This document shows positions 5,625 through 64,000 of a stretch of DNA of 64,000 nucleotides, piece by piece. This stretch comes from a virus, in UHGV virus genome UHGV-0076294, one strand, 5' to 3'. Position numbers and translations under genes: made by a program. The notes beneath the pieces were generated by a model. The model saw nothing but the letters and a program-made list of their open reading frames with translations. It had not been told where the DNA came from and made no database searches. Positions within the stretch are counted from its first letter, which is position 1. Each line of letters starts with the position of its first letter.

Positions 5625-7136
5625 ATGAAGAACGTTGATGTTGCTGTACTTTATACCGACGGTAGCCATTTAACCTCACCGATGGGAACAGGCGGTGGGA
5701 TTCACGGCTACCTGTTTAACAAGGAAGAGATTGTTGACGGTGGCGTTTATCGCCACCCTACCATTCCCGAAGGGATTACGACCTCTGGTTATCGTCAGAT
5801 TAACAAAGAGGAAAAACTTCCTGCGTTACCAGACTCTGTTGAGTTCGTAGACTGTGTTATTCCGGTACCGAAACACCACCACTCTGATGTTGCAGAGATT
5901 GTTGCTTTTTTAACCGTTTTCGAAAAAGCACCGTTCGTTGCAAAAAACTACGTTATCTATATCGACGCGTCTTACGTTGTGAATACGTTTAACGATTGGA
6001 TTGACGGTTGGGCTAAGCGGGACTGGCGACGGGCTGATGGAACCCCTATCGCGAACCTTGAACTGGTTCAACGGATGTGGGAAATTAAGAAACGTCTGAA
6101 GAGAGAAGGGAAAGGGATTCGTGTTCTTAAAATCAAAGGACACTCTGGTCACTACGGTAACGAACGGGCTGACGGGCTGGCACGAAAGGGATCATCCATC
6201 TCTGCGCACGGAGAAGGTTTAGATTATCAGGCGTACTGGTCAGCAGACGAAATCCCGGAAGAACAGCAGGAAGAAATCGTCAGTGAAGGCGTTAACGTTG
6301 CCGCGTTTCCTGATATTTGCGTAACTAAGTTCTGTTACCCGATGGTAAATGAGCAACACCCTACGGTTAAAGTAAACGGTGAAAATCTCTATTACATGTT
6401 CGGGGGTAACCACGCAAAACAGAAGGACGATATTGTCTTCGTCGGAAAATACATCCCTGATGCGCAGTTTTGTGTGATGTTTACACGTGAACCGTGGACG
6501 AACGTTTACGATTTGGTTAACGCCCACGCTGCTAAAGCCTGGGAGGGCGTACCACGTTTGCGTCAGTTTGACCCTATCGCTGTTGTGTTCAACCTGTTCG
6601 TAAAACGTAAGAAGTTTGCGGAAGCAGCGGCTAACGGTATCCCGGTTGACAAAATGCACTTTAGCGAAGACAAAAACCTGTGGATGTACGAAGACTTGTC
6701 TATCAGTCGTATTCTGCGTCCCGCGTTATTGTCATACCGCTGCGTAACCATTCGTGATGAACTGGCAGAGTGGCTGCGTGACTGTTTGGAAGGCAAATCG
6801 AACGTTGTCTTAAATGACATTACCGATTTGCTTTATGACGAAAAAGGTAAACCCACCAAAGACTTTTACCGAAACGTGGATAAAGGGTTTGACGTTTCCA
6901 TTAAAATTCCTAACGGGAAGGTTGACGTTAAAACTATTCTGACGCGTGCTATCGACATACCGACACGTACGGAAATCAACCGTATCAAAGAACCAAACGG
7001 GAGATTCTACATTGCCGTACGACGTCCAGAACGTCAGTATATTGAATATGCGTTAGTGTATATCGGTGAGAAGTATCATGGTCTGTGGTGTGGTTATTAT
7101 TCAAACAAACGAATATTGACCGATAAGGAACTTTGA
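5625..7136 (+). CDS. RNase HI domain protein with ~310-aa C-terminal extension of unknown function
   Basis: 503 aa. The first ~190 aa carry RNase HI blocks YTDGS, AEIVAF, IDASYV and HSGHYGNERADGLARKG. The rest has no motif I recognise. Confidence 0.85.
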   Translation: MKNVDVAVLYTDGSHLTSPMGTGGGIHGYLFNKEEIVDGGVYRHPTIPEGITTSGYRQINKEEKLPALPDSVEFVDCVIPVPKHHHSDVAEIVAFLTVFEKAPFVAKNYVIYIDASYVVNTFNDWIDGWAKRDWRRADGTPIANLELVQRMWEIKKRLKREGKGIRVLKIKGHSGHYGNERADGLARKGSSISAHGEGLDYQAYWSADEIPEEQQEEIVSEGVNVAAFPDICVTKFCYPMVNEQHPTVKVNGENLYYMFGGNHAKQKDDIVFVGKYIPDAQFCVMFTREPWTNVYDLVNAHAAKAWEGVPRLRQFDPIAVVFNLFVKRKKFAEAAANGIPVDKMHFSEDKNLWMYEDLSISRILRPALLSYRCVTIRDELAEWLRDCLEGKSNVVLNDITDLLYDEKGKPTKDFYRNVDKGFDVSIKIPNGKVDVKTILTRAIDIPTRTEINRIKEPNGRFYIAVRRPERQYIEYALVYIGEKYHGLWCGYYSNKRILTDKEL

Positions 7137-7804
7137 TGCTGATTGTTTTTAGTCAAGCGTTATCGATGGCACCGAGTTATATCCAGATACGCTTTTCAGC
7201 AATTGCGCGTCAGCAGTGGGGCTTTAAAGCCCCCTATTCTGACGACCACTATACACTCGGTGAAGTAGCACTTGAACTTGCTTTACGTTCATTGTGGGAA
7301 ATCATTGCATTGTACAATGCAGGTTGTGATATACCGAAAGATTGTTTCCCACAGCGGGTGATTGCACAAGGCACTACGAACACTTACGGTAATCCGGCAT
7401 TGGTGGAAGAGTGCTTAGGCTACGCTAACCAGTCTGGGGAACTGCAACATAACTTTAATCTGGTGATTAACAAAGTCTGGAGTGAGCTGGAAAGCTACCC
7501 TGAAAAGATTATCTGGTTTGATCGTAACCAATTCGTTAAGGAGGTGGCCAGTAAACGACCCGTACGTTTAGTTGCCTTAAAGCCCACCGACCTTGATTTG
7601 AAACAAACCTATCCCTTCCCAGAGGAAATTCGACTTTCTCCAGAAACCGTAGGTCACACTATTTTCAAACAAGGTGACGCCTGGATACTTCCTCACGATC
7701 TAGACCGTTTCCTGCTCAACTCCGATCAGATTCACTCCGGCTATGATTCTCTCGTAAAAGAGTTTCACATCGATCCCTATTTCGCTAAAAACTTTCTTAG
7801 ATAG
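7136..7804 (+). CDS. hypothetical protein
   Basis: 222 aa from an ATG overlapping the upstream stop (TGATG). The track start at 7133 is TTG. Confidence 0.7.
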   Translation: MLIVFSQALSMAPSYIQIRFSAIARQQWGFKAPYSDDHYTLGEVALELALRSLWEIIALYNAGCDIPKDCFPQRVIAQGTTNTYGNPALVEECLGYANQSGELQHNFNLVINKVWSELESYPEKIIWFDRNQFVKEVASKRPVRLVALKPTDLDLKQTYPFPEEIRLSPETVGHTIFKQGDAWILPHDLDRFLLNSDQIHSGYDSLVKEFHIDPYFAKNFLR

Positions 7805-7821
7805 ATATTATTCAGGTGTAG
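7800..7821 (+). promoter_or_regulatory. promoter-like motif, copy 1: GATAGATATTATTCAGGTGTAG
   Basis: Shares GAYAGATATTAT + N4-6 + GTG(A/T)AG with three other sites. Lies 20 nt upstream of ATG 7842. Confidence 0.4.
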
Positions 7822-7841
7822 AACCCTCGGAGTTAATCACC

Positions 7842-8579
7842 ATGTTGAAAGTTTATGTCCCTCAATTACAACGTATTAATCCCTCGTTGTTCGAGGGATT
7901 CTTTTATAAAATTTGGCCACAATACTTCAATGAACACCTGAAAGACTCAAAATGGTCATCTGTCCAAGGAGAATTCTTTTACACCGCACAATCAGCCTGT
8001 ACAAATGTCTTTACCCACCTCATCTCTGAGGTTATTGACGCTGTCAACACCAACCGAAACTTTGACCTTCGTGACGTCATAATAGATCTCTCAGCGATCT
8101 TCGATAACTACGATTGCGATGACGCAGTATTCGAACATTTCTCCTCTGAAGATGTGTGGGAGGCCGTTTATCAATGGCTAGAATACTACGTGAATTTTCT
8201 ACTTTCCTCGAACATGTTAGAAAATTACAATAAAGCACTCTTTCCCATTTATAACGACTTAATGAACGTTAAACTGACAAAGAATCTCGTTGGTTTTTGG
8301 TATTCGACCTACGACGCTGAAAGCAGGTTGTGGGAAAAAGAAATGATCGCTTACGGCATCGAGCGCGGCGATTATGATGAATTATATCGATGTTATTGGC
8401 CATTCAATCATTACGAAAAAGGGTGTCAAGGCGATCCGTATTTGTGGTCTTTTTATTTCTGTAATCAGACTGGTGTTATTTATCTTGAAGACACCGGTGT
8501 ACGAATCCCTAACGGTACTGATGTAACATACTGCCAATTACGTAAAGACCGGGCTGACGCCATTTATCAGGATTATTAA
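7842..8579 (+). CDS. hypothetical protein
   Basis: 245-aa ORF, SD CGGAG upstream, co-oriented operon. Confidence 0.75.
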   Translation: MLKVYVPQLQRINPSLFEGFFYKIWPQYFNEHLKDSKWSSVQGEFFYTAQSACTNVFTHLISEVIDAVNTNRNFDLRDVIIDLSAIFDNYDCDDAVFEHFSSEDVWEAVYQWLEYYVNFLLSSNMLENYNKALFPIYNDLMNVKLTKNLVGFWYSTYDAESRLWEKEMIAYGIERGDYDELYRCYWPFNHYEKGCQGDPYLWSFYFCNQTGVIYLEDTGVRIPNGTDVTYCQLRKDRADAIYQDY

Positions 8580-54068: not shown

Positions 54069-56585
54069 ATGGAGAACTGGCTGGTCGCCCACGCCATCCA
54101 AAAAGCGTGGCAGCGTCCATATCTCGACGGGGTGTTGAACATTGCACCCTTCCGTCTTTCACCCAAGACCGGGGCGATCGGCTTTTTCAAACACGGTCGG
54201 ACACCGGTAGCGCTACCGAAAGAAAATACCTGGTGGCACGCATTCGTTATTGATAAACTTCACGTAAACTGGGGGAACTTAGCCATTCCCCTAAACCGCT
54301 GGAAGAAACTTTCAACGTGTGTGAACGGCTTCAGTACCTGGATGCTGGTCTACAACGAGAACGGAGTTTCGATCCCCTCTGAGTATGTCTACTTTTACCG
54401 CACCAGCACTGGGATGGTTTACATGGCTATCCCACAATCCGATCGCTATAGCTGGTTAGAAGAAGACATCTGCTACCTGCGAATTTATCCGGGTTACAGT
54501 GGGGGTGAAAACGCGCCGTACATTAACCCAACCACCGTTGAGTATTTCTCACCGCCCAACCGCGAACAGGTTCAGAGAGTCGTCGATCGGTATAACCTAC
54601 TTAAGCAACAGAATAAAGGTTACGTTGAGTTCTGGTTAAACGGTGAATTAATCGACTCACCGAAAACGCAAGACATTAAAGTCTGGGACGATATCGACAT
54701 TCGTGTTGATGGACGTGTACGCCGCATCGTTGAATTCCGTTGTGGTGACTTACCGACGTTTATGTCTACGCTCGACAGCAAGCGTAAGTATTTGCTCCAC
54801 ATTCCGAAAAAAGACGGGATTTGGATTTTCAACAACGACGCCGAAATTCAGCTGTTCTGGAAAGGTCGCGGTCGTTATTACCACCGTCATCGTCACCAGG
54901 CGATGCGTCAGCTAACGTGGAACGATTTGGCTATCCCAACTGAACGCATTGCGAAATACCGTAACGTCTTTAACGAGTCTATCACCGATTTAGATGAACT
55001 GGTCATTCGTCTTATTATCCGTGACGACTATCTGGACATTACGCCGCTGTATAACTCGTCCCACGTCCACGATTTGTATCGTCTCACCGACGAACTGATT
55101 ATCGACGCGATGATTGGCGCTAACGCCAACGTAACGGAGTGGCAAGCGGCTAACTTAGAACAAGCTGCGTTTAACCGTTTGGCTGCGGCTAAGCTGGAAA
55201 ACATTAACCGTGACTTGTGTACTGACGCTTACGGTTATAACGCCGTTACGCGTTACGCAGCTGACACACCGCAGCGCCTGACCTTAACCGAAGGTGGTTA
55301 TCGTGCAACGCTCCCTGCGTTACTGGCGGTTAACTCCACCGTATACGAATACGACGGTGATGGTTTACTGTTAGAGGCGCATCAAAACACGGGCTACGAT
55401 GTTTACCAAGCTCGCAATACCAACGCTCGCATTATCGAAGCGATTGCGGGGACAAAAGACGACGCGGTGACCATTGTCGATAACGCTGACGACTTCGTGA
55501 TTAACGAAGGTGAAAACGTTAACCTCTGGTTACGTAAAGTCATTGACGATATTCCTCGTGACGAGTATATCGAAGCGGTAGAAGGGACGGACTACGAACG
55601 GGACGGGAACAAGATTACCTGGTCGGTAGACAGAACGCGTCGTCATCCAACGGTGATTTACGACGATCGTCATTTGTTCTTCGAAACCACCGTTGCGGTG
55701 CGGGAAGGGGAAATCCGTATTCCGATTATGGCACGTAACCAGGAAGGGAATCAGCGTACGCTGTGGATTCCGATGGAAACCGTTGAAGTGTGGTTAAATG
55801 GCCACCCGCTGGTACACGGCATTGACTACCACGTTATTTGGCCTGAAATCGTGGTGGTGTGTAAGTCCTGGGTAAGTGACGATGAAGACAACCACATCGC
55901 CGTAAGGTGTCGTGGGGTAACGGGGACACTGCGTATACCGAAACACGGGTTTGTCTCCAGCGGCTTACTGTCTAACAACAGTCAGTTCGATTGTCGTGAT
56001 GACAAAGTCATTCGTGTTGTGGCTGGCGGCTCTTTACTGCTGCGCGATGAAGTGGTGTTCCGTGAGGACAACACCGTTGGGGTCAATATCGTTGACGATG
56101 GTTATCCGTATTCAGTTGATGACCCGACCATTCCGTTACGGACGATGGTTACCGGTGACACCTACGAGCTGCGTGACGTTGCCCGGGACCTGGACACGCG
56201 TGTTGAGAATTACATGACACACTGGTTCCCAACACCACCGCCTGAAAACCCGGTACCGCTACCGCACTTATACCACCTGTATTCGCCGACACTGAACAAA
56301 ATCATGTGGGATTACCTAAACGGTATTTTAATCCTGCGAGAAGACGATCCTGACTACCGTATCTCAACGACTCAGTTGGATGAGATCATGGAACGTTACA
56401 AAGATCTGCTTCCCTTCGACCCGGCGTATATCGGCTACGATAAAGCGTTCGTCAAACTCCACCCACACGTCAAATACGAGACGGTGGAAATCAACGAACT
56501 CGGTTTTGCGTTCTTAGACCGCGTAAACGAACGGTACCTGAACGGTGAAGTTCAGCTGAACCAGTATCTGAAAATCAAGGGTTAA
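54069..56585 (+). CDS. hypothetical protein, possible virion/tail protein (position-based)
   Basis: 838-aa ORF, SD AAGAGG. Confidence 0.75.
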   Translation: MENWLVAHAIQKAWQRPYLDGVLNIAPFRLSPKTGAIGFFKHGRTPVALPKENTWWHAFVIDKLHVNWGNLAIPLNRWKKLSTCVNGFSTWMLVYNENGVSIPSEYVYFYRTSTGMVYMAIPQSDRYSWLEEDICYLRIYPGYSGGENAPYINPTTVEYFSPPNREQVQRVVDRYNLLKQQNKGYVEFWLNGELIDSPKTQDIKVWDDIDIRVDGRVRRIVEFRCGDLPTFMSTLDSKRKYLLHIPKKDGIWIFNNDAEIQLFWKGRGRYYHRHRHQAMRQLTWNDLAIPTERIAKYRNVFNESITDLDELVIRLIIRDDYLDITPLYNSSHVHDLYRLTDELIIDAMIGANANVTEWQAANLEQAAFNRLAAAKLENINRDLCTDAYGYNAVTRYAADTPQRLTLTEGGYRATLPALLAVNSTVYEYDGDGLLLEAHQNTGYDVYQARNTNARIIEAIAGTKDDAVTIVDNADDFVINEGENVNLWLRKVIDDIPRDEYIEAVEGTDYERDGNKITWSVDRTRRHPTVIYDDRHLFFETTVAVREGEIRIPIMARNQEGNQRTLWIPMETVEVWLNGHPLVHGIDYHVIWPEIVVVCKSWVSDDEDNHIAVRCRGVTGTLRIPKHGFVSSGLLSNNSQFDCRDDKVIRVVAGGSLLLRDEVVFREDNTVGVNIVDDGYPYSVDDPTIPLRTMVTGDTYELRDVARDLDTRVENYMTHWFPTPPPENPVPLPHLYHLYSPTLNKIMWDYLNGILILREDDPDYRISTTQLDEIMERYKDLLPFDPAYIGYDKAFVKLHPHVKYETVEINELGFAFLDRVNERYLNGEVQLNQYLKIKG

Positions 56586-56587
56586 TC

Positions 56588-58228
56588 ATGGCCTTAACAA
56601 CTGACATTATCAACAAGGATCGCGGTTTCCGTGTATGGCGTCCTGAGGAGCTTTACGCGGCGGAACGACCTACCGGTTACGTACCGAACCCGAAAGATCT
56701 GATCGTTAACGATATCACCTCTGGTTTTGATATCGTCGTAAGCGTTAACTACGCGAAACCCTCGTGGGAAACTGAACCGTGGGGTGGGGTGGGTGTTGCC
56801 AACCAGGACGGACGTCTGAACGGTCACTACCCGTTACGAAGTGACAAATACCGTGTCTACGTGGACAGTTCAAAACTGCCTGCAACGATGGTCTTGGATA
56901 ACGCGTTGACGTTTGAAGGGCCTGACGTAGACGGTGTACGTGTCTTCCGTGGGAGCACCGTAGATGACCACGCAGAAATCCTGTCGGGGTATTACAAAGA
57001 CGGTAAACTCAAATACACGTACCTGCCCGTACAGACCATCTCGGTGGAAGGCGCTGAACGTGTTGTTAAACAAACGCTACCTGGTGCGTGTTTAGCCGAC
57101 GTTGAGAACGGTGAAGCGTGTATGTTTGCCGTGTACTCGGACGTAGGTAACGTGGTACAAATCGGCCATGCCCACATCATCAAAACCAACCTGGTGATGG
57201 CACAGGAAACACCGGTTCGTACGGTATTGGGTATTAAGCTGGTTTCTCCGTTCTTGGTGGACAACGACGGTACCACTCTGACACTGCCTATCAACATGCC
57301 TATCGACTCTATTCCGTTGTGGTGTGATGTGATTTACAGTGACGGTACCAAACGTTTACCGATAGACCAGGCTCGTGTGAAATTCAACGGTTTACGCAAC
57401 GCCGGTTCTCACGACACCTTCTACATCGCGTCTAACGCCGGTAACAGTCTCCCTTGCGTACTAAGTTACAAGCTCTCGAAAGGGGAAACCTACGGTGGTA
57501 CGGATATCGTTGGTGACACCATCGTGAAGAACTACACCGCTGTCACCGAACAGGTCGATGGGGCTTACTCCATGAAGCTGTTTGTGGTACCGAGATGGTT
57601 GGATGCTACCCGTGGTTATCGTCTGGACTTCCTGTTGTATAACCTGACGCGTGGTAAGGTTTACGATGCGACAGCACACGTGAACTACACGACGGGCACC
57701 ACGTTTGACCCGCTATTGATGGGTGTGAAGCAGCGTCTAAACGTCCAGGTTGACATCAGCAAGGTAGACAGTAAGTTCCGTGCGTTTATCCAGTCGCAGT
57801 CCTTTGCGATTACACTGGTAAATCCGGGTAACGAACTGAACACCAACTTCATTCTGGAGTATCTGCCTGACGGTGAGAAATACGGTGAAAACGTATGGGC
57901 GGAGTTCAAATACTCCAACGTTAACTACTCGGAAATCGACGTCAGTAACAAAGTCAGCTCGAAAACAGAGTGGCTTAAACTGCTGTACGAACCGATTTAT
58001 CCGTTGTACGATCGCCGTAACGAATCGGAACCGCCTGAACCTACCCATTTCGAAATTCACGTTGGGGGTAAAGTTTACACCTACAGCGTGGACGAGTGGT
58101 TAGATAAGAAAGTTATCGATTACCGCGTCCCGTTAGACGCAGCGCTGGTGATTCGTTGGATTCGTCGTACTCCAACCGATACGCTTAACCTTGCAGCGTC
58201 ACCGATGCTTGCGCATCACATCGAATAA
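56588..58228 (+). CDS. hypothetical protein, possible virion/tail protein (position-based)
   Basis: 546-aa ORF, 2-nt spacer from the upstream gene. Confidence 0.75.
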   Translation: MALTTDIINKDRGFRVWRPEELYAAERPTGYVPNPKDLIVNDITSGFDIVVSVNYAKPSWETEPWGGVGVANQDGRLNGHYPLRSDKYRVYVDSSKLPATMVLDNALTFEGPDVDGVRVFRGSTVDDHAEILSGYYKDGKLKYTYLPVQTISVEGAERVVKQTLPGACLADVENGEACMFAVYSDVGNVVQIGHAHIIKTNLVMAQETPVRTVLGIKLVSPFLVDNDGTTLTLPINMPIDSIPLWCDVIYSDGTKRLPIDQARVKFNGLRNAGSHDTFYIASNAGNSLPCVLSYKLSKGETYGGTDIVGDTIVKNYTAVTEQVDGAYSMKLFVVPRWLDATRGYRLDFLLYNLTRGKVYDATAHVNYTTGTTFDPLLMGVKQRLNVQVDISKVDSKFRAFIQSQSFAITLVNPGNELNTNFILEYLPDGEKYGENVWAEFKYSNVNYSEIDVSNKVSSKTEWLKLLYEPIYPLYDRRNESEPPEPTHFEIHVGGKVYTYSVDEWLDKKVIDYRVPLDAALVIRWIRRTPTDTLNLAASPMLAHHIE

Positions 58229-58275: not shown

Positions 58276-60384
58276 ATGATACTACGTGAATCGGACTGGC
58301 GTTATTATCCAGGCGCTATTGTTGACGATAAAACAACAAACAAATCCTTTATCAAGTTTGCTAACTTACTGAAAAAATTGGGTGTAAAACACTGGTACAT
58401 TCACCTGGCGTTACATAACCCACTGTTGCAGGGCGTAGACCCGTTCGATGAAAACCTTTCAGAACAGATGAAGGCATACATCGCCATCGAATGTGCTGAG
58501 AACCCGTGGTACTGGTTCAGGGAATGTGTCAGGGTGCCTGCGGACGGTATGAAGTACGGTTCCCCGTTCCGTATCGACCGTGGTAACTTCTCGATGTACT
58601 GGATTTTCTTTAACAACATCGACGTTGCTGTAGAGTTCTTACGTCAGCACGGTAAAACCGTCGGGATGAGTGGCTTACTGCTGTGGTTGATTCGTTTCTT
58701 AGAAAACTCCCGAACAATTCTTATCACAAAAGGCCCGGCACTGCGTGAAGAAACTATCAACAAACTGAAACAACTTCGTAACGGTTTACCGAGTTACCTC
58801 TGGCCAGCGCATCCTGATGACCCAGATAACCGAGAAACCTTTGCGTGTTTAGCCCAGGGTAACAAACTGATTACAGGTATCGGCCAAAACGACCCAGAGT
58901 CCGCTAACGGTATCGGTCGTGGACTTACCGCTGGTCGTCTGTTCTCGGACGAAGGCCCCTTTACCAAAAACGTACACCACATTCTACCGGCAGCCCTGGC
59001 ATCCGGTACAGCGGCACGTCGTATTAACGAAGCGGAAGGTGTTCCTTACGGTAACGTATTCGCAACAACCCCTGGTGACTTAGCGACGGAAGAGGGCAAG
59101 TACATGTACGAGCTGATGACGTCAGGGATTATGTGGGATGAGCGCTATATCGACATTCCAACCCGTAAACAGCTCATTGACATCATCCGTTCTAACTCCA
59201 CGGCAGAAGTACCACGTATCATGTTCTACGTGAAGTACAACCACCGTCAGCTCGGTACCACCGATGAACAGTTAGCGGCAATGATTGCGAACGCCAAAGG
59301 TACCCCTGACCAGATCCGTCGTGACTTCGGTGGGGAATGGACAACCGGTGGTCTGAACAAGCCGTTCTCAGCGGAAGATGCAGATCGTATGAATGCTTCA
59401 CGAATGCGTGCAGTGTTCAAAGATATCTCACCACAAAACTACGTTACCGACTGGTACTACACCGAAGAAGAAATGATGATGAAACTCAAAGATCGTCATG
59501 TCATCGGTTTGGATACCTCCGAAGCCGTAGGTCGTGATGCGATCGCTATGTCCATCGTCAACGCGGTCACGGCCGAGTACGCCGGTAAGCTTACCGTTAA
59601 CGAATCCAACGTTATTTCGTTCGCGATCCATTTAGCGGATTTTATGGTGCGATATCCGAACACGGTACTGATTCTGGAACGACGCTCAACAGGCTCATCC
59701 GTTGCAGATGCGGTTATCCTGCAATTGCAATCACGGGTGTCCGATTTACACCGTCGTTTGTTTGTGCGAATCACCCAGGACTACTCGCGTACGGACGATC
59801 TCTACAAAGAGTATCACCGTGGCCCAGTGGGTAGCGCAGAGAAATTCTGGAATAAATTCCGCAAATACATCGGGTTCTCAACCGACCAGGAGAAACGTCG
59901 TAAACTGTACGGTGAGGTATTCACCACTGCGTTGCGCTTGTCTGCCGATAAACTCCGTTGTGGAGAGCTCATCGACCAAATTCTTAACCTCGTGGAGAAA
60001 AATGGTCGTATCGACCACAAAGCATCTGGTCACGATGACCTTGTGATTTCTTGGTTACTTGCAATGTGGTTATTGCTACTTGGGAATAACTTAGGGCATT
60101 ACGAGATCAACAACAGCCGTTTGATGATGCGTAATCGTAACTTGGCAGAAAACCGGGAAGGGGTGGACGAAGAGTTACAGCTTGAAGAGGAAGCGCGACA
60201 GCAAAAACTGATGGGGGAAATTGAGCAGTTAGTGAGAACGACCCACGGGTTACTCGACCCGGTCCAAGCAATGGCCGCTCGTAACCGACTTCAGGCCCTC
60301 ATCTCTCAACTTAACACTGATACACAAAACGTGGCGTCAATGGAAAGCTTGAGAGAGCTTCTCCAACGCCAGAGGATGAAGTGA
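58276..60384 (+). CDS. terL: terminase large subunit (T4 gp17-like)
   Basis: 702 aa. Walker A LRQHGKTV (cf. gp17 SRQLGKT), Walker B GRLFSDEGPF, nuclease Asp blocks VIGLDTSEAVGRD and SGHDDLVISWLLAMW. Confidence 0.85.
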   Translation: MILRESDWRYYPGAIVDDKTTNKSFIKFANLLKKLGVKHWYIHLALHNPLLQGVDPFDENLSEQMKAYIAIECAENPWYWFRECVRVPADGMKYGSPFRIDRGNFSMYWIFFNNIDVAVEFLRQHGKTVGMSGLLLWLIRFLENSRTILITKGPALREETINKLKQLRNGLPSYLWPAHPDDPDNRETFACLAQGNKLITGIGQNDPESANGIGRGLTAGRLFSDEGPFTKNVHHILPAALASGTAARRINEAEGVPYGNVFATTPGDLATEEGKYMYELMTSGIMWDERYIDIPTRKQLIDIIRSNSTAEVPRIMFYVKYNHRQLGTTDEQLAAMIANAKGTPDQIRRDFGGEWTTGGLNKPFSAEDADRMNASRMRAVFKDISPQNYVTDWYYTEEEMMMKLKDRHVIGLDTSEAVGRDAIAMSIVNAVTAEYAGKLTVNESNVISFAIHLADFMVRYPNTVLILERRSTGSSVADAVILQLQSRVSDLHRRLFVRITQDYSRTDDLYKEYHRGPVGSAEKFWNKFRKYIGFSTDQEKRRKLYGEVFTTALRLSADKLRCGELIDQILNLVEKNGRIDHKASGHDDLVISWLLAMWLLLLGNNLGHYEINNSRLMMRNRNLAENREGVDEELQLEEEARQQKLMGEIEQLVRTTHGLLDPVQAMAARNRLQALISQLNTDTQNVASMESLRELLQRQRMK

Positions 60385-60620
60385 TGGCTCCAATATACTA
60401 TTTGCTCGTGTTCTTTTCGTGGATCGCGACGTACAAAATGATTAGACACAGTTACCAATCGATAGAACGATACGGTGCATCGCACGGTGTGTGTCATCGT
60501 ACGACGCGGTATGCGCAGGCGGTAGCAGTATTCGGATTAATGGTGGCAGGGACATCAGCGACTTACGCTCTAAACTTGGTGTACACTATCCACTTATTAG
60601 CGGTATCCGGGGCCCATTGA
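60384..60620 (+). CDS. small membrane protein (two hydrophobic helices)
   Basis: 78 aa from an ATG overlapping the terminase stop (GTGATGG). Helices YYLLVFFSWIATY and AVAVFGLMVAGTSATYALNLV. Followed by a bidirectional terminator. Confidence 0.5.
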   Translation: MAPIYYLLVFFSWIATYKMIRHSYQSIERYGASHGVCHRTTRYAQAVAVFGLMVAGTSATYALNLVYTIHLLAVSGAH

Positions 60621-60637
60621 AGCCTTTTAAAATAAAC

Positions 60638-60679
60638 TAGCCTGAGACCCACCGGGGTCTCAGGCTAACTCTTTTTTTA
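60638..60679. terminator. bidirectional terminator
   Basis: 13-bp stem TAGCCTGAGACCC accg GGGTCTCAGGCTA, then ACTCTTTTTTT; A-run upstream. Confidence 0.85.
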
Positions 60680-62053
60680 TTTCTGTAACGAACGAATCAG
60701 AAAGTAAAGCAGTAACGCATTACGCAGTGCAGCTAACGCAGACTCGTGACGAATGTGGGTCTCTTTCGCTGCCAGTTTCTCAATGCGAGAACGCAACGAC
60801 AACACATACGGGTTAGGCGATTTCGACGCCTGGTACAACGCACGCATACGCTGTAATACCGTGACCGCATCGTTGAAGTTAATTCGGTTGGTAACGATTT
60901 CGTCAAAAGCGTGAGACAGCGTGTCTTCCATGATGCTGTTAACCTCATCGCGTTTCTTCCCGATAGGGAGTCCTGCGATATACGTCAGCAACGTTTTCAG
61001 TGCCGCAGGTGACGCTTTCGGCACCATCTCCAACACCACACGCGCCAACTCTTCTTTGTACAAATTGTTGATATCGTAAGACGCATCAAACAGGTTCTGT
61101 TTTGCGATTTCCAACGCACCAACTTTGTCACGAATCACCGACTGACCGTCTAACTCCACACGCGCAGACTGGCTGACCACACGAGCGTTCTCACGACGTA
61201 CGCGGTCAAGCACCGCGTAGTAGTCTTTCACGGTTTGTTTCGTACGGGTGTTCAGGTCAGTGATATAACGCAACACCATATCCGGTGCATCAAACCGTTT
61301 TACCGCATCGTAGTTAGGGTATTCCGGGGAGCAGAAATACGTTGCACGTTCTGCCATGTGCAGCCCCCAATTCCCTAAACGACGAATATCGAATTTCATC
61401 GACAGCATCGAGTACGCGGCTTCGGCAGCAGGTAAGTCTACCGGCTTCGGGAAGAAGTGGTAGTAAATACTCGAGTAAAATTTGAACTGAAGAATCGTCA
61501 CCAGGTCGATACCCGCAGCGAGAATCTCTTTGTCACCGAACTTCGGAATCATCAGGTGCAGTAAATACACGATGGTCAGGTTATACGTGTCACCCGCCAC
61601 CTGCCAATCGGTATTGATGGAATGCGACTCTTTAATCAGCTCTGACAGATAGTCTTCGTCGATGTTAATCACCTCATCGAACAGACGGTTACGGTCAGAA
61701 TCGAAAAAACGAATGCTGTGGACACCGAGGAGGTTCGACCCTAACCACTCCACGTTGCCTTCACGAGAGAGTATCCCGCTTACGTAGTGACGCAGCTTAG
61801 ACGCCAACTTGCGGTCAATCACGAGTTTGTTAAACACGCTGTCAAACGCTTTACGTAAACGGTCATCGTGACGGGCTTCGTGGGCGACGGAGAATCCCAT
61901 CGGCACGTAGCCGCCAAAACCGTAGTCGTAGTACAACCCCGGTGAGGTTTCCGCGTTGTCGAAGTACGGGTCGTGACCGAACGATTCCTGAGCAACGCGG
62001 GTTCCGGTGGTTTGATAACAACCGGAGGTAAAATCATAAACCAGTTCAGCCAT
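60677..62053 (-). CDS. hypothetical protein
   Basis: 458-aa ORF, SD GAGG 8 nt upstream. Confidence 0.8.
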   Translation of the reverse strand: MAELVYDFTSGCYQTTGTRVAQESFGHDPYFDNAETSPGLYYDYGFGGYVPMGFSVAHEARHDDRLRKAFDSVFNKLVIDRKLASKLRHYVSGILSREGNVEWLGSNLLGVHSIRFFDSDRNRLFDEVINIDEDYLSELIKESHSINTDWQVAGDTYNLTIVYLLHLMIPKFGDKEILAAGIDLVTILQFKFYSSIYYHFFPKPVDLPAAEAAYSMLSMKFDIRRLGNWGLHMAERATYFCSPEYPNYDAVKRFDAPDMVLRYITDLNTRTKQTVKDYYAVLDRVRRENARVVSQSARVELDGQSVIRDKVGALEIAKQNLFDASYDINNLYKEELARVVLEMVPKASPAALKTLLTYIAGLPIGKKRDEVNSIMEDTLSHAFDEIVTNRINFNDAVTVLQRMRALYQASKSPNPYVLSLRSRIEKLAAKETHIRHESALAALRNALLLYFLIRSLQK

Positions 62054-62075
62054 CAGTGAACCTCGAAATTATTAC

Positions 62076-62099
62076 GGATAGATATTATCCTAGTGAGAG
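62076..62099 (+). promoter_or_regulatory. promoter-like motif, copy 4: GGATAGATATTATCCTAGTGAGAG
   Basis: In a divergent intergenic region, 27 nt upstream of ATG 62126. Confidence 0.45.
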
Positions 62100-62125
62100 T
62101 CTTATTACCTAAAGGAGTTTTTACC

Positions 62126-63250
62126 ATGAGAAATTATCTGCGCAAACCCGCTTGGCACAAGATGTTGCGTGAAGGTACCATCGACCGCGAACAGCAAGTC
62201 AAGATGTGGGTGCTTCCTCACGGCGTAATTTGTGACCTGGTCAGAGTCGGTGGGATGGACATCCTGCGTAACGGTACCTACGACGCCGTCAACTCGTTCT
62301 TAGCACGAGAACTGGCGGAAGCAGGGTTACAAGGTGAGGTGTTATTTTACACCACCCGTGTTATCCCGCAAACATTGTCTAAGTGGTTAACGTACTGGCT
62401 GTCTAGTGACCCTGACGCATCAGACCCCGAACTCAGTTCGGTAACGATTACCACACTAGGCCAGTATCCCACGAAACCCTTACCATTTCAGGTGAACGTT
62501 GTTGAGCCGTTAATCGTAAAAGCCGGTGACGTGTTTGACATGATTAAAGTCAAATCCCGTAACCAAGCCGTTTCCCAGTTTATCATCGAAACGGGTGAAC
62601 ACACATTCCGATTAGAACCTGTCCGTAAAACCGATGCGACGCTGCTGGCCGTAACGGATTACGGAATCGTTTGTCGTTCTTCCGAAGGGCACACCTTCCT
62701 GTGCACGATACTCTCACGACGTATTCAGGCACAGTTAGAACACTACAAACTTTCCCTGGAAGACATCGTCGGTACGACGTTACGTATCGAATACACGATG
62801 TACACGGAAGGGAATCGGTTGTGTAATTACAAGTCCCCTATCGCATACCGAGCGTTAGCGCTGGACAACATGGGAGACTGGGTCTCAACGACATACGAAG
62901 GGCCTTCCCCGTTCAAAACCATCCCAACCCAACGACCGGCGTTGTTGACCGTCACCCGCTGTAACCGTGCCGAGATTTTCGAGGAAGAGGGTGTGATTTC
63001 CGGTTACGAACGTGAAACAGGATTAACGCTTTTCCGCTTCCGACGGGGTGCGGAGTACGGTCGCTATGCTGCCGTGTTCGAACGAGACGGTAAGCAAGAA
63101 ACCTGGCTTTTCGATTCGGATTTCTCCGTTGAGGTGATTGACCCTGAAGGCTTTGTGGCTTCAGTGGGGAGTCAGATTTTCTACGCCACGGGCTACAGCC
63201 TGCTGGACGTAAAACTGCACTACCCTCAGAAAGAACAGGTCTGTCCGTAA
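62126..63250 (+). CDS. hypothetical protein
   Basis: 374 aa from ATG 62126 (SD AAAGGAG 8 nt upstream). The track start GTG 62093 lies inside the promoter-like motif. Confidence 0.8.
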   Translation: MRNYLRKPAWHKMLREGTIDREQQVKMWVLPHGVICDLVRVGGMDILRNGTYDAVNSFLARELAEAGLQGEVLFYTTRVIPQTLSKWLTYWLSSDPDASDPELSSVTITTLGQYPTKPLPFQVNVVEPLIVKAGDVFDMIKVKSRNQAVSQFIIETGEHTFRLEPVRKTDATLLAVTDYGIVCRSSEGHTFLCTILSRRIQAQLEHYKLSLEDIVGTTLRIEYTMYTEGNRLCNYKSPIAYRALALDNMGDWVSTTYEGPSPFKTIPTQRPALLTVTRCNRAEIFEEEGVISGYERETGLTLFRFRRGAEYGRYAAVFERDGKQETWLFDSDFSVEVIDPEGFVASVGSQIFYATGYSLLDVKLHYPQKEQVCP

Positions 63251-63258
63251 AAAATTAT

Positions 63259-63298
63259 CGGGTGGCTTCGGCCACCTGTTTTTTTTTATTTTTTTTTG
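63259..63298. terminator. bidirectional terminator
   Basis: CGGGTGGC ttcg GCCACCTG followed by T9AT9; AAAAAA on the 5' side serves the opposite direction. Confidence 0.8.
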
Positions 63299-63752
63299 CC
63301 AAAAAACTTCGACCTCCTCAGAGCGATTCTAACGTATTTTTAGGTCGAGGTGGTACGTTCGTATACCCTGGGTGAGTTTTTCTCGTTAGAGAGCTTCTCA
63401 GGAAGAATTTGACGGGGTTTTATTCCCTGTCGAAGAATTTATTTTAACCCAAACCGCAACAAACCCCAAAACCGGGTGCTGGGATGTCTCTGGAAACCCT
63501 ATCCGGTTGGTGATTTTTTAACCGGATTTCGTAAAACGCTCTAGAAACGATTTTAACGCGGTTTTTACCCCTACCCAGTACACTTGGGTTACCTGATCCT
63601 GTTTAGCGCGATGTGGAGCGATTGAGAAAGCGTACGACCCATTGCCGAGGGTGGGTGAGACCCGACCCTGCCACCCGACGGCCAGCCGCCGCGCCGATCA
63701 AAAAAACATTCACGCTTCGCGTACTAACGGATCAAGTGATTGGATCAACGTT

Positions 63753-63779
63753 TTGAATCTTCACACACTGAAGATTCAA
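63753..63779. repeat. perfect 11-bp hairpin TTGAATCTTCA cacac TGAAGATTCAA
   Basis: Read directly from the sequence. Confidence 0.8.
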
Positions 63780-63816
63780 GTTGAGTAGTTATCTTGCTTG
63801 GTTTTTTAAATACTCA

Positions 63817-63837
63817 CGAGAGACCTCAAGTCTCTCG
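63817..63837. repeat. perfect 8-bp hairpin CGAGAGAC ctcaa GTCTCTCG
   Basis: Read directly from the sequence. Confidence 0.8.
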
Positions 63838-63892
63838 GATCGATCTTAAAAATTTAACTCTCTCAAAAAACCTGATCTCAAAATCTCTTCCT

Positions 63893-63920
63893 TATACGCG
63901 TGTGCGTGCGCACACGTATA
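63893..63920. repeat. 28-nt perfect alternating pyrimidine-purine tract (YR)14, also an imperfect palindrome
   Basis: TATACGCGTGTGCGTGCGCACACGTATA. TATACG/CGTATA and TGTGCG/CGCACA arms. Confidence 0.85.
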
Positions 63921-63922
63921 GT

Positions 63923-63950
63923 ATAATATATTTATTTATAAATATATTAT
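63923..63950. promoter_or_regulatory. perfect 12-bp AT-only inverted repeat (ATAATATATTTA ttta TAAATATATTAT) carrying outward-facing copies of the ATATTAT promoter-like core
   Basis: Plus strand reads AAATATATTATTCC (cf. copy 1 GATATTATTCA). Minus strand reads AAATATATTATACTATACGTGTG (cf. copy 2 GATATTATTTACGTGAG). Confidence 0.4.
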
Positions 63951-64000
63951 TCCTTTAGGATCAAAATAATAATACCTTTAGGTATTATTTAATTATATAT

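What the first reader, a model, noticed from the sequence alone, without database searches (positions are those of the whole stretch)
63595..63962. Eight GATC (Dam) sites packed into 368 bp of non-coding DNA
GATC occurs at 63595, 63696, 63730, 63743, 63838, 63842, 63874 and 63959, about six-fold above random expectation. Three occur in the same heptamer GGATCAA and two are back-to-back (GGATCGATC). Clustered Dam sites are a known hallmark of methylation-controlled elements in enterobacteria and their phages, such as oriC and the P1 pac site with its TGATCA/G hexamers. That makes an origin- or pac-like role plausible.
Basis: partly seen in the sequence, partly recalled or inferred. Interest (0 to 1): 0.55.

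Follow-up and report, generated by a model that had tools for sequence, protein, structure and literature searches.

The report
Dam-site cluster flanking jumbo-phage AT-rich element
The eight GATC sites are real and form the left arm of a conserved non-coding control element, most likely a replication origin, in a giant nucleus-forming phage that carries its own Dam methylase and otherwise avoids GATC.

Summary
There are eight GATC sites at the stated coordinates. This is the densest cluster in the window (P about 0.005), in a genome where GATC is the second most depleted tetramer (observed/expected 0.50).

The window belongs to a jumbo phage related to Erwinia phiEaH2 and Salmonella SPN3US. 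The cluster is the left arm of a conserved non-coding element that the window cuts at base 64000. A relative that is 97.8% identical shows the whole element:
- a GATC-dense left flank with covarying hairpins;
- a G+C-rich palindromic box;
- a core of about 185 bp that is 95% A+T and holds promoter-like palindromes;
- a second G+C-rich box with more GATC sites.

Eleven lineages share this layout. In the complete phiEaH2 genome (GATC observed/expected 0.30) the element is both the GATC maximum and the A+T maximum. Every lineage examined encodes a Dam orthologue.

The best reading is a Dam-marked DNA-unwinding element, most likely the replication origin (confidence about 0.4). A packaging-start site and a methylation-sensitive transcription hub remain open. 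It is not a member of the oriC or P1 pac families: it has no DnaA boxes, no oriC 13-mers and no TGATCA/G repeats. I found no published description.

The parts
63259..63288 (+). Intrinsic-terminator-like hairpin plus T-run that ends the upstream gene (ORF 62093/62126-63250). It marks the left border of the non-coding region.
   Evidence: 8-pair stem, 6 G-C pairs, T9 tail. An equivalent hairpin plus T-run is present in all relatives.
63442..63557 (+). Three TTTTAAC(C/G) repeats (63442, 63516, 63551), iteron-like. phiEaH2 has three TGTACAnnTTTTAACCA copies at the same place.
   Evidence: In phiEaH2, 3 of the 9 genome-wide TTTTAACC sites lie within 80 bp here.
63573..63589 (+). Conserved 17-mer ACCCAGTACACTTGGGT. 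Its sequence is conserved and does not covary.
   Evidence: Alignments. The motif recovered further lineages (Caitlin, ChrisDB, L064).
63595..63962 (.). The GATC cluster: 8 sites forming the left arm of the element.
63692..63700 (.). GCCGATCAA, the one left-arm GATC kept in all 11 lineages.
   Evidence: Alignment invariant columns; also present in Caitlin, ChrisDB and L064.
63753..63779 (.). Perfect 11-bp hairpin or palindrome, TTGAATCTTCA-cacac-TGAAGATTCAA. Other lineages keep it through compensatory changes.
   Evidence: I5; -8.8 kcal/mol, z -6.3; pairs 255-259/274-278 with changes on both sides.
63817..63837 (.). Second hairpin, CGAGAGAC-ctcaa-GTCTCTCG, immediately followed by GATCGATC. Relatives have a hairpin of different sequence at the same place.
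   Evidence: -8.4 kcal/mol, z -4.0; alignment.
63892..63920 (.). G+C-rich imperfect palindromic box, TTATACGCGTGTGCGTGCGCACACGTATA, at the left edge of the A+T core. A related G+C-rich box lies at the right edge in relatives.
   Evidence: Conserved in all lineages. The two boxes are direct repeats in SPLA1a (D1).
63916..64000 (.). Start of the A+T core (87% A+T here). It runs off the window; in the 97.8%-identical relative L004 it is 185 bp at 95% A+T.
   Evidence: In phiEaH2 it is the A+T maximum of the whole genome (92% against 75% for the next).
63923..63950 (.). Perfect 13+13 palindrome, ATAATATATTTAT-tt-ATAAATATATTAT, inside the core.
   Evidence: I2; z -3.4.
63968..63989 (.). Palindrome AATAATACCT-tt-AGGTATTATT. 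It reads as two back-to-back near-copies of the core of the phage's predicted early-promoter motif (AGATATTAT). The palindrome is kept through compensatory changes in other lineages (AATATCTTTAGATATT; ATCCCGTAGGGAT).

Best explanation
The eight GATC sites are the left arm of a conserved non-coding element of about 0.6-0.7 kb. It is found in SPN3US/phiEaH2-like nucleus-forming jumbo phages.

Anatomy:
- The centre is a tract of 90-185 bp of almost pure A+T, the easiest place in the genome to unwind.
- That tract holds short palindromes resembling two divergent copies of the phage's early (virion RNA polymerase) promoter core.
- It is clamped by G+C-rich boxes.
- Both sides carry GATC-dense DNA, hairpins and short direct repeats.

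Proposed mechanism:
- I read the element as the phage's origin of replication. The A+T core would be opened with the help of a phage polymerase or initiator that binds the palindromes or repeats, on the T7/T4 principle of a promoter next to an unwinding element.
- The phage's own Dam methylase would mark the flanking GATC sites. Their full, hemi- or un-methylated state would then either tune melting or protein binding, or distinguish replicated from unreplicated copies.

Shown: the anatomy, its conservation, its genome-wide uniqueness, and the co-occurring Dam gene.

Inferred: that the sites are methylated, that the core unwinds, and that replication starts here.
For: 1. Conservation. The same ordered blocks occur in 11 lineages spanning Seoulvirus, Erskinevirus, the Caitlin, ChrisDB and Huxley Erwinia phages, and uncultured relatives.
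2. GATC excess is seen in each of eight lineages (8-11 sites against 1.4-2.6 expected, 0 of 2000 shuffles). Individual sites turn over; for example 63595 is absent in L003 and L004. This argues for selection on density as well as on a few fixed sites.
3. Genome-wide uniqueness in phiEaH2. The element is the top GATC cluster and the top A+T window, in a genome with GATC observed/expected 0.30. Other non-coding DNA has 1 GATC per about 2100 bp, against 1 per 76 bp here.
4. Dam. There is a syntenic Dam orthologue in every lineage checked. It matches PF02086 (6e-59), TIGR00571 and E. coli Dam 2G1P (1e-61), and K9, N120, R124, P134 and DPPY are conserved. It is also present on the contig 97.8% identical to the window.
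5. Origin-type features:
- an extreme A+T core between G+C clamps;
- locus-specific direct repeats;
- palindromes kept by compensatory change;
- similarity of the palindromes to the GATAGATATTAT-(6N)-G motif found upstream of 13 phiEaH2 genes and 3 window genes. That motif matches the virion-RNAP promoter type AAATATATATTAT-(6N)-G (PMC5312081).
6. The field assumes T4-like headful packaging without a defined signal for these phages (PMC5694885; PMC6256631; PMC12390700). That lowers the prior for pac.
Against: - There is no experimental datum on replication, methylation or DNA ends for any of these phages.
- Cumulative GC skew shows no inflection at the element; it follows gene orientation.
- No replication genes are adjacent. 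The DnaB-like helicase and the polymerases lie far away in phiEaH2.
- The core palindromes deviate from the promoter consensus. They lack the 5' GAT and the +1 G, and such polymerases are reported to tolerate little deviation.
- Caitlin and ChrisDB keep the element with only about 4 GATC sites although they have Dam. High density is therefore not obligatory.
- The element lies 3.2 kb downstream of the large terminase gene, which equally suits a packaging site.
Confidence: 0.4

Rival explanations
1. Packaging-initiation (pac-like) site. The terminase, or an unidentified recognition subunit, would bind the two GATC-rich arms and make the first cut in or near the A+T core. Methylation by the phage Dam would time or license the cut, as at the P1 pac site.
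For: - The element lies 3.2 kb downstream of the large terminase gene (58276-60384).
- Two GATC-rich arms around a central region mirror the layout of P1 pac. P1 also encodes its own Dam, which pac needs (PMC10028697; PMC12707154).
- Base 1 of the SPN3US record falls inside the element.
Against: - There are no repeated TGATCA/G hexamers, at most 1-2 per strand per element, and GATC contexts are heterogeneous.
- Described pac sites do not contain a pure A+T tract of about 100-185 bp (my own knowledge).
- Headful packaging of the T4 kind, without a signal, is what the literature assumes.
- GenBank assemblies of SPN3US-like phages start at scattered positions (terminase coordinates). This fits circular permutation.
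- No small terminase is known in this phage group (my own knowledge).
Confidence: 0.2
2. Methylation-sensitive transcription hub. The A+T core would hold divergent promoters for a phage RNA polymerase. These would drive the downstream structured non-coding RNA or long leader and the tRNA/HslV-like gene block. The hairpins would be terminators or RNA elements. GATC methylation would switch these promoters, as in the Mu mom, IS10 or pap control regions.
For: - The palindromes resemble the early-promoter core.
- Hairpins with compensatory changes followed by T-rich runs look like terminators.
- A conserved structured RNA candidate lies 0.5-1.1 kb to the right in relatives (50 pairs, 17 with compensatory changes).
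- GATC sites sit directly at both edges of the core in most lineages (CAGGATCTTTTAA and CGCGTGATCCTTATTA).
Against: - The copies in the core miss key consensus positions, including the +1 G.
- The left flank shows no global RNA structure, only local hairpins.
- A simple promoter region would not need 185 bp of A+T or to be the single genome-wide GATC maximum.
- This reading is not exclusive of an origin that is primed by transcription.
Confidence: 0.2
3. No dedicated function. The cluster would be chance, or simply relaxed GATC avoidance in non-coding DNA.
For: A single 368-bp cluster in one 64-kb window is only moderately significant on its own (P about 0.005).
Against: - The excess recurs independently in eight lineages.
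- It is the genome-wide maximum in phiEaH2.
- Other non-coding DNA is more depleted in GATC than coding DNA.
- Several GATC sites are invariant across genera.
Confidence: 0.03

Closest known systems
E. coli oriC and the P1 plasmid origin oriR (Dam-site-rich origins)
   Same: A GATC density far above the genome background is concentrated in and beside an A+T-rich unwinding region. Short repeats lie nearby. Methylation state is a plausible regulator.
   Different: - There are no DnaA boxes and no GATCTnTTnTTTT 13-mers.
- The element would work inside a phage nucleus with a phage-encoded Dam, not host Dam, SeqA or DnaA.
- The A+T tract is far longer and purer.
- The surrounding genome is GATC-depleted, unlike E. 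coli.
Bacteriophage P1 pac site
   Same: It is a phage cis site with two groups of Dam sites around a central region. The phage carries its own Dam. The site is near packaging genes (PMC10028697; PMC12707154).
   Different: - P1 pac is 161 bp inside pacA, with seven TGATCA/G hexamers.
- Here the element is non-coding and about 4 times longer.
- GATC contexts are heterogeneous and there is almost no TGATCR.
- The centre is pure A+T with palindromes.
T7 primary origin and T4 oriF/oriG (a promoter next to an A+T-rich unwinding element, primed by a transcript)
   Same: Sequences resembling a phage-polymerase promoter are embedded in or next to an A+T-rich tract, in a phage that transcribes with its own polymerases.
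   Different: - The promoter-like copies are palindromic and off-consensus.
- No transcript or R-loop has been shown.
- Those origins have no Dam-site clusters (my own knowledge).
Dam-regulated promoters (Mu mom, IS10 transposase, pap)
   Same: Several GATC sites lie in a regulatory non-coding region, where methylation changes protein binding.
   Different: Those systems use 2-3 sites and host regulators (OxyR, Lrp). Here there are 8-14 sites, an unwinding core, and no access for host factors.

Membership tests
oriC-type (DnaA/Dam/SeqA) origin | DnaA boxes (TTWTNCACA) | tested here: not met
   Zero matches on either strand in the window region and in seven complete elements.
oriC-type (DnaA/Dam/SeqA) origin | A+T-rich 13-mers GATCTnTTnTTTT | tested here: not met
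   Zero matches. Only looser GATC-plus-A/T-run contexts occur, such as GGATCTTTTAA in relatives.
oriC-type (DnaA/Dam/SeqA) origin | GATC density far above genome background, next to an unwinding element | tested here: met
P1-type pac site | Repeated TGATCA/G hexamers in two groups | tested here: not met
   At most 1-2 TGATCR per strand per element. None of the window's eight GATC sites lies in a TGATCR hexamer when read on the + strand.
P1-type pac site | Site lies inside the pacase/terminase gene | tested here: not met
   The element is non-coding and 3.2 kb downstream of the large terminase gene.
P1-type pac site | Phage-encoded Dam available to methylate the site | tested here: met
   A Dam orthologue is present in all related lineages and on the 97.8%-identical contig. 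It is not within this window itself.
P1-type pac site | Sequence-specific cleavage that generates packaged DNA ends | not testable with these tools
   This needs mapping of virion DNA ends.
Transcription-primed phage origin (T7/T4 type) | Functional phage-polymerase promoter adjoining an A+T-rich unwinding element | tested here: inconclusive
   The A+T element is present. Only near-consensus palindromic copies of the predicted early-promoter core are present, with no full GATAGATATTAT-(6N)-G.
Dam (D12-class GATC N6-adenine methyltransferase) - for the co-occurring phage gene | Full-length match to the Dam family, with the DPPY catalytic motif and GATC-contact residues | tested here: met
   PF02086 at 5.7e-59; TIGR00571 at 256 bits against a cutoff of 115; E. 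coli Dam 2G1P at 1e-61 over residues 4-270. LKW-GGK, GYNGMCRYN, FNVPFG and DPPY all align. Which residues contact GATC is from my own knowledge of the EcoDam structures.

The most novel reading that the evidence does not exclude
A self-contained epigenetic replication (or packaging) switch inside a phage nucleus. The phage would purge GATC from its 240-kb genome, keep one dense GATC island around its only strong unwinding element, and use its own conserved Dam, plus an as yet unknown reader, to license or time initiation there. All of this would be independent of host Dam, SeqA and DnaA. If so, this would be the first defined origin-type cis element for Chimalliviridae, and it would give the conserved phage Dam a function.
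Probability: 0.3. Interest if true: 0.75.

Novelty: new variant of a known kind. Interest (0 to 1): 0.6.

Why it matters
My searches found no replication origin or packaging signal defined for nucleus-forming jumbo phages. I also found no stated role for the Dam methylase that this enterobacterial clade conserves.

This element gives one short, precisely bounded, conserved candidate that can be tested directly by:
- marker-frequency sequencing;
- end mapping;
- m6A calling;
- Cas13-selected mutants.

It is also useful for engineering, for example to make plasmids that replicate in, or are packaged from, the phage nucleus.

A practical point for annotation: base 1 of the SPN3US-family records cuts through this element, which hides it in linear records.

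Tried and rejected
- Near-identity DNA search of the region against GenBank phages found nothing. A distant search matched only 109 bp. The element was traced through synteny and motif scans instead.
- Rfam, at both gathering and E-value thresholds, gave no RNA family in the non-coding region, only tRNAs further on.
- RNAalifold of the left flank gave only local hairpins and no global RNA. I rejected the reading 'the cluster lies in an ncRNA gene'.
- Cumulative GC skew of phiEaH2 follows gene orientation and says nothing about an origin.
- I first took the truncated loci L003, L012 and L004 for contig ends, that is, possible physical termini. I rejected this because the loci are cut by storage blocks: L013, from inside phiEaH2, is cut the same way.
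- TTTTAACC as a genome-wide promoter motif was rejected, with 5 found against 4.4 expected. It is locally repeated only.
- Pfam and PHROGs gave no function for the flanking ORFs.
- Testing whether lineages without Dam lack the cluster was not possible, because every lineage with the element has Dam.
- Literature searches for an origin, a pac site or GATC in SPN3US- or phiKZ-type phages found no prior description.

Full report
**Observation**

So are the three GGATCAA heptamers and the back-to-back GGATCGATC. The window has 163 GATC sites, one per 393 bp, so eight in 368 bp is 8.5-fold over the local norm.

- In a 368-bp sliding scan this is the only place that reaches 8. The next best has 6, and 0.55% of uniform placements reach 8.
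- GATC is the most enriched of all 256 tetramers in the interval.
- Dinucleotide-preserving shuffles of the local sequence give 1.3 sites against 7 observed.
- The DNA is non-coding. It has only short unconserved ORFs, and the matching stretch is unannotated in relatives.

**What the window is**

The 702-aa ORF at 58276-60384 is a large terminase. It is 84% identical to those of Erwinia phages Asesino and phiEaH2, and 81% identical to that of Salmonella phage SPN3US. These are phiKZ-like jumbo phages with genomes of about 240 kb. They belong to the nucleus-forming group, which shields its DNA from host enzymes (PMC12707154).

The cluster lies in a large intergenic region 3.2 kb downstream of the terminase gene. 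It follows an early-promoter-driven gene of unknown function (62093/62126-63250) and that gene's terminator.

**The whole element**

The window ends at 64000, inside the element. A viral contig that is 97.8% identical over 62093-64000 (L004) shows the rest. Reading left to right:

1. Three TTTTAAC(C/G) repeats (63442-63557).
2. A conserved 17-mer, ACCCAGTACACTTGGGT (63573-63589).
3. A G+C-rich stretch ending in the invariant GCCGATCAA (63696).
4. Two perfect hairpins (63753-63779 and 63817-63837).
5. A G+C-rich palindromic box, TTATACGCGTGTGCGTGCGCACACGTATA (63892-63920).
6. A core of 185 bp at 95% A+T. It contains a perfect 13+13 palindrome (63923-63950) and the palindrome AATAATACCTTTAGGTATTATT (63968-63989).
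7. Beyond the window, a second G+C box fused to GATCCTTATTATGAGATCTGATC, followed by further GGGGATCGG repeats.

L004 carries 14 GATC sites in the 1018-bp stretch examined around the element.

**Conservation**

The same ordered blocks occur in the following genomes and contigs:

- phiEaH2 (L001);
- the SPN3US-like phage SPLA1a (L002) and SPN3US itself (L015/L056);
- Huxley (L018), assigned by its matching contig length of 240,761 bp, Caitlin (L053) and ChrisDB (L058), all Erwinia phages;
- several uncultured relatives (L005, L007, L009, L064).

Three kinds of evidence point to function.

- Some GATC sites are invariant across genera. These are GCCGATCA on the left, CAGGATCTTTTAA at the left edge of the core in most lineages, and CGCGTGATCCTTATTA on the right.
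- Other sites turn over even between near-identical genomes. For example, 63595 is GACC in L003 and L004. Yet the count stays at 8-11 against 1.4-2.6 expected in each of eight lineages, and no shuffle in 2000 reached the observed count.
- The hairpins and the core palindromes change sequence but keep their symmetry: AATACCTTTAGGTATT, AATATCTTTAGATATT and ATCCCGTAGGGAT.

Caitlin and ChrisDB keep the layout with only about four GATC sites. The dense cluster is therefore typical but not obligatory.

**Genome-wide context**

I assembled the complete phiEaH2 genome from five fetches.

- GATC occurs 351 times against 1170 expected from trinucleotide frequencies (observed/expected 0.30). Only CTAG is more depleted.
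- In the window the ratio is 0.50, again second only to CTAG.
- The element is the top GATC cluster of the whole phiEaH2 genome (9 in 384 bp, P about 0.002).
- It is also, by a wide margin, the most A+T-rich 100 bp (92% against 75% for the runner-up).
- The excess is not relaxed avoidance in non-coding DNA. With a crude ORF mask, other non-coding DNA has one GATC per about 2100 bp in phiEaH2 and one per about 750 bp in the window. Coding DNA has one per 671 and one per 399. The element has one per 76-94 bp.

**The Dam link**

phiEaH2 gp028 is a full-length Dam orthologue.

- It matches Pfam PF02086 at 6e-59 and TIGR00571 above its cutoff.
- It aligns end to end with E. coli Dam (2G1P, 1e-61). 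The LKWxGGK, GYNGxCRYN, FNVPFG and DPPY segments are conserved.
- Orthologues at 48-100% identity sit at a syntenic position in SPN3US, SPLA1a, Asesino, Stratton, Caitlin, ChrisDB, Huxley, Machina and others.
- One is also on the contig that is 97.8% identical to the window.

The gene is outside this window, about 100 kb away in phiEaH2. Its presence in the window's own genome is therefore inferred.

In a phage whose DNA is enclosed away from host proteins, the phage's own Dam is the plausible methylase. If Dam and GATC depletion both served only to escape restriction or mismatch-repair nicking, a conserved GATC island would be a liability. Its retention implies that the sites are used.

**Promoter-like palindromes**

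The motif GATAGATATTAT-(6N)-G occurs 13 times in phiEaH2 on the coding strand, mostly just upstream of genes. It occurs three times in the window (7803, 16903, 62080). It matches the form of virion-RNA-polymerase early promoters in this phage group: AR9 has AAATATATATTAT-(6N)-G, and the start site lies 6 nt after the motif in phiKZ and phiR1-37 (PMC5312081).

The core palindromes are two back-to-back near-copies of its AGATATTAT core. They lack the 5' GAT and the +1 G. They may bind a polymerase or another dimeric protein without being ordinary promoters.

**Interpretation**

The part I regard as established is that this is a conserved cis-acting element. It couples the genome's single strong unwinding tract to a Dam-site island.

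I favour a replication origin (about 0.4) for four reasons:

- the extreme A+T core between G+C clamps;
- the locus-specific repeats;
- the palindromes with promoter similarity, in a phage that supplies its own polymerases (the T7/T4 principle);
- the precedent of Dam-rich origins.

A packaging start of the P1 kind (about 0.2) fits the terminase neighbourhood and the two-armed layout. Against it, the P1 hexamers are absent. The long A+T tract is unlike known pac sites. The literature also assumes signal-free T4-like headful packaging for these phages.

A methylation-sensitive transcription hub (about 0.2) fits the terminator-like hairpins and the conserved structured RNA candidate downstream. 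It overlaps with a transcription-primed origin.

Chance is excluded by the comparative data.

Membership in the oriC and P1 pac families fails on their defining sequence motifs. The resemblance is one of principle only.

**Limits**

- There is no experimental information on methylation, replication start or DNA ends for any member. My literature searches found no description of this element.
- GC skew is uninformative.
- The right half of the element is inferred for this genome from a 97.8%-identical relative.

Noticed in passing
Outside the window, about 0.5-1.1 kb beyond base 64000. L001 ~7700-8130; L002 ~6920-7370; also L005, L007, L009, L012, L015 and L018.: A conserved non-coding block of about 350-450 nt ends just before the next gene's ATG. 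Its landmarks are CAGCCTAACACT, ACCGTGGCAGC, GAACTTACC, GAATTCGGCGTTGCGTCGA, GGCTCGGAAAGACGAGAGGGG and AATTTACAG. RNAalifold gives 50 pairs, 17 of them with compensatory changes, at -58 kcal/mol. There is no Rfam match. It is a candidate new structured RNA or long leader, preceded by a conserved terminator-like hairpin plus GCTTTTTCGAG.
   Followed up: partly
Window 7803, 16903 and 62080 (+ strand); 13 sites in phiEaH2.: The motif GATAGATATTAT-(6N)-G lies on the coding strand, mostly just upstream of genes. It matches the virion-RNA-polymerase early-promoter type of phiKZ-like phages (PMC5312081). The copy at 62080 implies that the ORF starts at the ATG at 62126, not the GTG at 62093.
   Followed up: partly
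[not shown]
   Followed up: partly
Whole window and the phiEaH2 genome.: TATG and CATA are among the most depleted tetramers (observed/expected 0.48-0.63). TATG is the reported late-promoter motif of the phiKZ non-virion polymerase, so this may be promoter-motif avoidance. CTAG is the most depleted tetramer of all.
   Followed up: no
Window 60426-63594.: This is the longest GATC-free stretch in the window (3173 bp between sites). It lies directly upstream of the densest cluster and covers the two genes between the terminase gene and the element.
   Followed up: no
Window 56339-56706.: This is the second-densest GATC spot (6 sites in 368 bp). It lies about 1.6 kb upstream of the terminase ORF. 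I did not examine it further.
   Followed up: no
L004 330-480 (right flank of the element in the 97.8%-identical relative).: Lineage-specific direct repeats lie just right of the A+T core. In window orientation they read GGGGATCGG(G/T) twice and GGGGTAAWWYCCCCA three times (families D1 and D2). They look like iterons.
   Followed up: no
P0002.: One of the two closest database homologues (both 89% identity) of the ORF at 62126-63250 is labelled 'hypothetical protein, partial [Shigella flexneri]'. This hints that the window's phage lineage infects Shigella or Escherichia rather than Erwinia or Salmonella.
   Followed up: no
SPN3US record coordinates 1-250 (L015).: Base 1 of the SPN3US reference falls inside this element. 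[quoted passage not shown] Linear records that start at this position therefore split the element and hide it.
   Followed up: partly
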